From Octopus vulgaris (Eukaryota), in assembly GCA_951406725.2 (NCBI GenBank), contig OX597824.1, positions 85,498,001-85,562,000 of the forward strand: 64,000 nucleotides of DNA, in the 5' to 3' direction. The position numbers and the translations under genes were made by a program. Shown in pieces: positions 28,871 to 29,095 of the stretch. Under the pieces are notes generated by a model that did not search any database, was not told where the DNA came from, and saw only the letters and a program-made list of their open reading frames with translations. Within the stretch, counting starts at the first letter, position 1; the number at the start of each line of letters is the position of its first letter.

Positions 28871-29095
28871 CCTGCTGGGTTCGGCTACTCCACATTGATA
28901 AGGGGCAAATACTTCGAAACTAGTCTGTGGTTGGTGAACCAGCAAGGGGAAGCTGATGAGCTCCCCTGTTCGAAGGTTGTAGGGGACACAGGTTTGTGTG
29001 TCACATAGCTAGCTAGAGACGATGGCCTCCTGGAGCTAATCAACGGCAGCATTCGTCCTATTTTTCTGGACTATCATGTTAACTTGGCAATAACT
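28871..29095 (+). mobile_element. Divergent member of the 353-nt retrozyme-like family with a decayed HHR (28890-28930)
   Basis: CCACA-TTGATAA-GGGG CAAATA CTTC-GAAA-CTAG-TC-TGTGG, followed by the same ordered elements as at 49.9-50.1 kb (gggg..gatga..cccc, gacacag..gtgtgtc, cctcctggagcta). Confidence 0.7.

What the first reader, a model, noticed from the sequence alone, without database searches (positions are those of the whole stretch)
28871..29095. Third, distant member of the same ribozyme family with a Schistosoma-like CAAAUA loop II
Seen: CCACA-TTGATAA-GGGG(CAAATA)CTTC-GAAA-CTAG-TC-TGTGG, two transitions away from CTGATGA. Stem I has a different sequence but still pairs and extends (tgctgggttc/gaaccagca). 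It is followed in the same order by the ggg..gatga..ccc hairpin, the gacac..gtgtc hairpin and cctcctggRgcta seen at 49965-50070. Inference: the family is old and diverse, with a conserved architecture of HHR plus downstream hairpins. Three loci in 64 kb would imply a very high genomic copy number.
Basis: partly seen in the sequence, partly recalled or inferred. Interest (0 to 1): 0.7.

Follow-up and report, generated by a model that had tools for sequence, protein, structure and literature searches.

The report
Retrozyme copy with swapped hammerhead pair
This stretch is one shortened, ageing copy of a very common small jumping element that carries a predicted self-cutting RNA (hammerhead); its two 'mutated' core letters are shared by its whole subfamily and form an already known compensating base-pair swap rather than damage.

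Summary
The motif is as described, and a covariance model built only from the window's 353/355-nt copies hits it at E=1e-16. TTGATAA is U3-A8, a swap of the hammerhead's C3-G8 tertiary pair that is near-fixed in this copy's subfamily A: 122 exact genome matches against 5 C3-A8, 3 U3-A8-broken U3-G8 and 2 C3-G8. The swap is known in nature and reported active in vitro (PMC3088659, PMC4209133). The element is a 5'-truncated copy of a roughly 350-nt non-coding retrozyme superfamily of about 45,000 insertions (26,000-73,000). Copies show Penelope-type footprints: partial tandems, head-to-head inversions and two preferred 3' ends. A close relative, subfamily A', keeps C3-G8; subfamily C mixes U3-A8 with C3-A8. 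A young autonomous Penelope-like element here also carries U3-A8, but I found no sequence link to it. Cleavage and expression are untested. The scan has already noted U3-A8 retrozymes elsewhere in this genome and in others. Verdict: real, a new member of a known kind, modest interest.

The parts
28871..29102 (+). 5'-truncated copy of retrozyme subfamily A (monomer about 350-360 nt) between a (TG)n run and AT-rich sequence; no target-site duplication found; 8.3% from the subfamily majority
28873..28944 (+). Extended stem I: outer helix 28873-28882 with 28936-28944; internal loop with UAC at 28886-28888 and U at 28932, like the Schistosoma loop 1; inner helix 28890-28894 with 28926-28930 (28889/28931 is a U-U mismatch in this copy)
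28895..28901 (+). Hammerhead core UUGAUAA; U3=28895 and A8=28900 replace the C3-G8 tertiary pair; subfamily-wide state
28902..28915 (+). Stem II GGGG/CUUC with loop CAAAUA; two G-U pairs where most siblings have Watson-Crick pairs; predicted pairing probability 0.33 against a sibling median of 0.90
28916..28925 (+). GAAA box, 2-bp stem III with palindromic ACUAGU, GUC triplet; predicted cut after 28925
   Evidence: architecture as in PMC4209133
28946..28979 (+). Segment that can form a local hairpin in this truncated copy but pairs with upstream sequence in copies that keep the upstream part
28985..29002 (+). GACACA..TGTGTC hairpin, recognisable across subfamilies
29010..29102 (+). Conserved 3' body (includes cctcctggagcta 29026-29038) ending at the first of two preferred 3' ends, 177 nt after the predicted cut (174 nt in B); inferred reverse-transcription start
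49241..49680 (-). Subfamily B copy, inverted arm of a head-to-head insertion, with tail; hammerhead 49452-49496, C3-G8
49684..50117 (+). Subfamily B partial tandem, 353-nt period; hammerhead 49905-49949, C3-G8; young (copies 99% identical)
62059..62515 (-). Older B-like copy, about 80% identical to B; core CCGAUGA at 62337-62331

Best explanation
28871-29102 is a 5'-truncated copy of a roughly 350-nt non-coding repeat whose predicted type I hammerhead carries a subfamily-wide U3-A8 pair in place of C3-G8, and it was likely pasted in by a Penelope-like retrotransposon enzyme as a non-autonomous retrozyme. Shown: the repeat superfamily, the paired core swap, covarying stems, tandem monomers and the insertion footprint. 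Inferred working cycle: a tandem source locus is transcribed from an A/T-rich TATA-like stretch 50-60 nt before the core; two hammerheads pair through the palindromic stem III and cut after GUC to release a monomer; a host ligase closes it into a circle, as shown for other animal retrozymes (PMC7229834). A Penelope-type RT/GIY-YIG protein then nicks AT-rich DNA and starts copying at one of two fixed internal sites about 175 and 230 nt after the cut, reading across the intact or re-ligated cut site. This copy stopped 25 nt upstream of the core. It lacks the upstream promoter-like part and a second ribozyme, so it is likely a dead end, although its core, GAAA, GUC and stems still fit the hammerhead pattern.
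For: Core state: exact 18-mer counts of U3-A8 122, C3-A8 5, U3-G8 3, C3-G8 2 (the C3-G8 hit L062 belongs to subfamily A'). With a query lacking the core, 18 of 21 readable cores among 30 loci are U3-A8 and none is C3-G8. On 31 copies across subfamilies the 3-8 pair is UA 18, CG 11, unpaired 2; 11 of 13 pairs change on both sides, 90% of cells pair, covariation 0.576 against 0.297 shuffled and at most 0.21 slid. Monomers: 353 nt cut-to-cut in B arrays, 346 nt (A') and 362 nt (an A-clade type). Footprint in 73 A loci: 39 head-to-head inversions, 33 tandem junctions; 72 of 112 outer 3' ends fall at two sites (36 and 36), mostly before AT-rich sequence. This matches the tail and two RT start sites of PLEs (PMC11167929; PMC8557442). 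5' ends are scattered 12-330 nt upstream of the core in 51 copies. RT plus GIY-YIG elements with open 781-aa frames exist in the genome. Literature: U3-A8 is natural and active in vitro and occurs in about 1,300 S. mansoni PLE motifs.
Against: No cleavage, circle or transcript is shown for this family. No autonomous partner shares detectable sequence with the repeat: superfamily copies in 4 of 20 PLE regions are what the background rate gives, and the two I read (L237, L241) are separate insertions. Rfam does not score this copy as a hammerhead. Its stem II is weak, and a two-molecule fold of this copy did not give the full dimeric hammerhead. The covariation count is on related sequences and an alignment I chose, so it is not a probability. 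Eight of nine predicted Xenopus retrozyme dimers did not cleave in vitro, and PLE insertion in vitro did not need cleavage, so cutting may not be part of the copying step. No U6-like promoter element was evident upstream (by eye).
Confidence: 0.85

Rival explanations
1. One reading: an old copy whose canonical CTGATGA core decayed by two private transitions.
For: The copy is 8.3% from its subfamily majority; both changes are transitions; stem II is weakened.
Against: 122 of 132 exact-context matches are U3-A8, as are 18 of 21 readable cores found without the core in the query. The two changes restore a known tertiary pair.
Confidence: 0.02
2. The ribozyme is weak or vestigial in the U3-A8 lineages: the element spreads from uncut tandem transcripts like a Penelope-dependent SINE, and the fold is kept mainly as a protein-binding or structural signal.
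For: HHR mutants did not impair PLE insertion in vitro and uncut RNA was the main substrate. Every ribozyme-bearing copy spans the cut site unbroken. Subfamily C has 6 of 20 copies (4 insertions) with unpaired C3-A8.
Against: UGA, A9, GAAA, GUH, loop 2 and the loop 1 letters stay nearly invariant while stems covary. A compensated 3-8 pair is expected only if the active fold matters. Young B is canonical.
Confidence: 0.2
3. The repeat is the terminal repeat (pLTR) of a still-linked autonomous Penelope-like element, and these are its truncated ends.
For: Same insertion footprint; retrozymes derive from pLTRs in Xenopus.
Against: Tandems are head-to-tail 346-362-nt monomers with no room for an ORF. 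The PLEs I read have unrelated pLTRs. Only 150 of 6,136 GIY-YIG candidates were scored and 30 loci fetched, so this is not excluded.
Confidence: 0.08
4. A LINE-dependent SINE or a satellite spread by DNA mechanisms.
For: Dispersed, 5'-truncated and non-coding; some tandem arrays.
Against: Two internal 3' ends with no poly(A), head-to-head inversions in 39 of 73 loci, and more-than-unit copies.
Confidence: 0.04

Closest known systems
Metazoan non-LTR retrozymes (Cervera and de la Pena 2020, PMC7229834; passages and section 14 read)
   Same: Type I hammerhead in short non-coding tandem monomers (mussel 350-390 bp, here 346-362), thousands of copies, self-paired predicted circle.
   Different: U3-A8 core in subfamilies A and C; Schistosoma-type loop 1 and loop 2 letters kept, which the mussel motifs mostly lack; most copies here are dispersed one- to two-unit insertions with inversions; RNA not shown.
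U3-A8 hammerheads (Perreault et al. 2011, PMC3088659, passages; Cervera and de la Pena 2014, PMC4209133, parts 1-2 of 4)
   Same: Same C3-G8 to U3-A8 covariation, natural and reported active in vitro; about 1,300 S. mansoni PLE motifs.
   Different: Here it sits in a canonical-size hammerhead (4-bp stem II, 6-nt loop, extended stem I), not a minimal one, with a closely related C3-G8 subfamily for comparison.
Penelope-like elements, e.g. Anolis PAc (PMC11167929, parts 1-2 of 4; PMC8557442, passages)
   Same: Partial tandems, inverted 5'-truncated copy, two 3' ends forming a tail, AT-rich targets, hammerhead upstream of the RT start.
   Different: No ORF; tail about 45-55 nt against 30-40 bp reported; no shared sequence with the PLEs examined here.
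Schistosoma mansoni full-length hammerhead (PMC2632901, passages)
   Same: Loop 2 CAAAUA in this copy; internal loop with 5' U and a UAC strand.
   Different: Loop 2 varies in A (CAAACA 16, CAACCA 14, CAAATA 10, CAACTA 9 of 66), with C-A at the start and the last A kept; core U3-A8.
Retrozymes as non-autonomous PLE derivatives (Li, Clavereau and Pollet 2026, 10.64898/2026.07.22.740005; parts 1-3 of 5, supplements closed)
   Same: Co-occurrence of retrozymes and PLEs in one genome.
   Different: They found pLTR homology in Xenopus; I found none here. They sampled no mollusc by their class list.

Membership tests
Type I hammerhead ribozyme | Core boxes with a 3-8 pair, GAAA and NUH in a three-way junction | tested here: met
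   UUGAUAA (U3-A8), GAAA, GUC; all five descriptor criteria met by this copy and by 29 of 68 A copies; covariation
Type I hammerhead ribozyme | Rfam Hammerhead_1 score | tested here: not met
   No hit at E<=10 on 28860-29110; the canonical B copy is also under the cut-off, 32.2 against 34; that the U3-A8 swap costs the score is my inference
Type I hammerhead ribozyme | Loop 1-loop 2 tertiary contact letters | tested here: met
   Last A of loop 2 invariant in 31 of 31; UAC and U in the internal loop; the contact itself is not shown
Type I hammerhead ribozyme | Self-cleavage | not testable with these tools
   Needs an in vitro assay
Non-LTR retrozyme | Non-coding tandem monomers of 150-450 nt, each with a type I hammerhead | tested here: met
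   Met for the superfamily: 353-nt B arrays, 346- and 362-nt cut-to-cut units, tandem junctions in 33 of 73 A loci. This copy is sub-monomeric.
Non-LTR retrozyme | Expression as linear and circular monomer RNA | not testable with these tools
   No run on record as RNA was listed and only contigs were served
PLE-mobilised element | Inverted 5'-truncated copy, tail with two 3' ends, AT-rich target | tested here: met
   39 of 73 inversions; 72 of 112 ends at two sites; B likewise
PLE-mobilised element | Sequence shared with an autonomous PLE terminus | tested here: inconclusive
   None in 30 GIY-YIG loci and 20 extended regions; most PLE candidates were not examined
Autonomous PLE | RT plus GIY-YIG ORF between the repeats | tested here: not met
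   Monomers abut directly at 346-362 nt

The most novel reading that the evidence does not exclude
This superfamily records compensatory evolution of a ribozyme's catalytic-core tertiary pair step by step. C3-G8 lineages (B, A', D), a mobile unpaired C3-A8 intermediate inside subfamily C and fixed U3-A8 lineages (A, C) coexist, possibly with more than one switch, and the genome's young autonomous PLE also uses U3-A8. Lineages could cross the broken state because Penelope-type copying does not need cleavage, while cleavage is selected over longer times.
Probability: 0.3. Interest if true: 0.5.

Novelty: new member of a known kind. Interest (0 to 1): 0.27.

Why it matters
It corrects a likely annotation error: searches that demand CUGANGA would call hundreds of these copies dead or miss them. 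The subfamilies A (U3-A8) and A' (C3-G8), with shared stem I start and stem III, are a ready natural pair for testing what the swap costs and whether cleavage matters for Penelope-type mobilisation. The class, the core variant and the PLE link are all in print, and the scan has logged them in this genome, so surprise for a specialist is low.

Tried and rejected
Rfam on the whole window returned only microsatellite-driven matches in the 150 of 235 rows shown. The snoRNA C/D match on 28951-29037 (13.5 bits, E=3.8) was rejected; the UGAUGA there is rare in subfamily A. Autonomous partner: the profile hit PLE regions L234, L237, L241 and L252 (4 of 20, about 3 expected from background); L237 and L241 were read and are separate insertions; L234 and L252 were not read in full. 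Number of origins of U3-A8: the best tree joins A with A' (support 94/95; 100 in a first tree), but holding A and C together is not rejected (p-AU 0.47; 58 of 61 rows, three dropped as truncated or misaligned), so it is unresolved. C3 in subfamily C (6 of 20) exceeds the mean C fraction at T columns (0.057) but other columns reach 0.21-0.47, so it is suggestive only. The idea that the copy starts at a transcription start was rejected: 5' ends are scattered. U6-type promoter: no clear shared element by eye. Sequencing runs: no RNA holder listed; contigs from runs only guessed to be RNA cover B and A-like sequence but cannot show strand, ends or expression. The stem Ia and III probabilities printed used wrong indices and were discarded; one search has the corrected stem Ia and II values. 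Paper searches: hammerhead ribozyme with octopus gave 5 papers, 4 listed, none on this family by title or abstract start; a five-term octopus/SINE/Penelope/ribozyme search gave 2 genome papers, not opened; a C3U/G8A search gave none. The primary kinetic paper on U3-A8, sought by a recalled DOI, was not held. The random sample stopped at 1.0 Mb.

Full report
Observation. The motif is at the stated place: inner stem I 28890-28894 with 28926-28930, core TTGATAA 28895-28901, stem II GGGG/CTTC around CAAATA, GAAA, a 2-bp stem III with palindromic ACTAGT, and GTC ending at 28925. A descriptor finds 3 sites in the window against 1 in 20 shuffled windows, and nhmmer links this copy to the 49.9-kb copy at E=1.8e-8. 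A covariance model built from the three B copies alone scores 28867-29058 at 56.3 bits, E=1.1e-16. Rfam misses this copy and scores B just under its cut-off. The host is an animal genome of 2.8 Gb; 'octopus' comes from earlier scan notes, not from a test of mine.

The core is a subfamily state, not decay. The 225 nt have 2,542 first-look candidates in the genome, the best at 88-91% over full length, and most of those carry TTGATAA. To avoid selecting on the core I searched with the 3' part only: of 30 loci, 21 have a readable core, 18 are U3-A8 and none is C3-G8 (the window's own copy is among the 18). Exact counts in the A context are U3-A8 122, C3-A8 5, U3-G8 3 and C3-G8 2. [quoted passage not shown] So the proposed 'restore CTGATGA' test starts from a wrong premise.

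Subfamilies. One of the two C3-G8 hits (L062) led to subfamily A', with C at position 3 in 23 and G at position 8 in 24 of 24 copies, the same stem III and a covarying stem I. Subfamily C has A8 in 19 of 20 copies, with U3 in 13 and C3 in 6 (four insertions). B is C3-G8 in 11 of 11 and very young (median 0.9% from majority; A 6.6%, A' 5.0%, C 10.1%; this copy 8.3%). On 31 copies spanning these and rarer types, 11 of 13 pairs change on both sides, the 3-8 pair is UA 18, CG 11, other 2, and covariation is 0.576 against 0.297 shuffled and at most 0.21 slid. The outermost stem II pair is unpaired in 16 of 31. These counts rest on related sequences and are not probabilities. With positions 3 and 8 masked, A and A' group together, but a single U3-A8 clade is not rejected (p-AU 0.47). 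Contigs of runs labelled as two other organisms hold A-like sequence with no difference listed at 28895 or 28900; 19 rows were hidden and the likeness filter favours similar copies.

Copy number. In 100 evenly spaced 10-kb regions a profile finds 16 insertion clusters and 0 in reversed sequence, or about 45,000 in the genome (95% interval 26,000-73,000). The profile was partly built from hits in the first 80 regions, which single-sequence searches had already found in 9 regions; the 20 later regions gave 4 clusters independently. Many copies are 5'-truncated and lack the ribozyme. From the exact-match rate I estimate a few hundred ribozyme-bearing copies of A proper (inference).

Anatomy and footprint. 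Monomers are 353 nt (B arrays), 346 nt (A') and 362 nt (an A-clade type) from cut to cut. Among 73 A loci, 39 have a head-to-head inverted arm and 33 a tandem junction; 72 of 112 outer 3' ends fall at two sites about 55 nt apart, mostly before AT-rich sequence (the second site is blurred by TA repeats and de-duplication was approximate). B shows the same with a tail of about 45 nt, including the inverted pair at 49284-50117 in this window. These are the PLE hallmarks (PMC8557442), and the tail equals the stretch between two internal RT start sites in the Anolis PLE (PMC11167929). The window copy ends at the first site, 177 nt after the cut (B 174 nt), starts 25 nt before the core, and has no target-site duplication. 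5' ends of 51 copies scatter from 12 to 330 nt upstream, so copying runs through an intact cut site.

Partner. The genome holds RT plus GIY-YIG elements, many with an open 781-aa frame. In 20 of 30 GIY-YIG loci the downstream repeat carries a minimal hammerhead-like motif that is also U3-A8, with palindromic ACATGT in most, as in one A-clade type. Beyond that I found no sequence shared with the retrozyme, and nearby retrozyme copies occur at the background rate. The mobilising family is therefore inferred from the footprint only.

This copy. It meets all five descriptor criteria, as do 29 of 68 A copies, but its stem II has two G-U pairs and a predicted pairing of 0.33 against a sibling median of 0.90. 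With no upstream part and no second ribozyme it is likely inactive as a source. Activity and expression are untested.

Comparison and verdict. It is a member of the metazoan non-LTR retrozyme class (PMC7229834; preprint 10.64898/2026.07.22.740005, supplements closed) with a known core variant. My paper searches found no description of this family, but the library lacks most subscription journals. My reading was recorded before I saw them. New member of a known kind; interest 0.27.

Noticed in passing
L233:1905-5586 and downstream repeat; L207-L232: Young Penelope-like element with an open 781-aa RT plus GIY-YIG frame in many copies, a separate 359-aa frame upstream in L233, tandem TGACGTC/GATTGG repeats in its terminal repeat, and a U3-A8 minimal hammerhead-like motif in 20 of 30 loci, about 65 nt before the 3' end.
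   Followed up: partly
L279, L286, L294, L300: Subfamily C copies with unpaired C3-A8 core: 6 of 20 copies, four insertions; possible intermediate state.
   Followed up: partly
window 62337-62331 (-): The 62-kb copy has core CCGAUGA (U4C) and a mismatch in stem II; an earlier scan note describes a CCGAUGA family in this genome.
   Followed up: no
L237:3300-6490: A second PLE family with an inverted 5' copy of its terminal repeat and a degenerate hammerhead-like motif near 6300-6350.
   Followed up: no
window 28487-28740 and 62041-61920 (-): Two stretches that look by eye like tRNA-derived SINEs beside the A copy and abutting the 62-kb copy; not tested.
   Followed up: no
L323-L332: Of 10 U6 loci fetched, 4 (L324, L326, L331, L332) have an octamer-like motif and a TATA box upstream; the others look like retrocopies. 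L331/L332 lie in an array with about 1.1-1.4-kb spacing.
   Followed up: partly
upstream part of all subfamilies (e.g. window 49830-49870): Conserved CAGTG..CACTG-like palindrome followed by an A/T-rich TATA-like stretch 50-60 nt before the core.
   Followed up: partly
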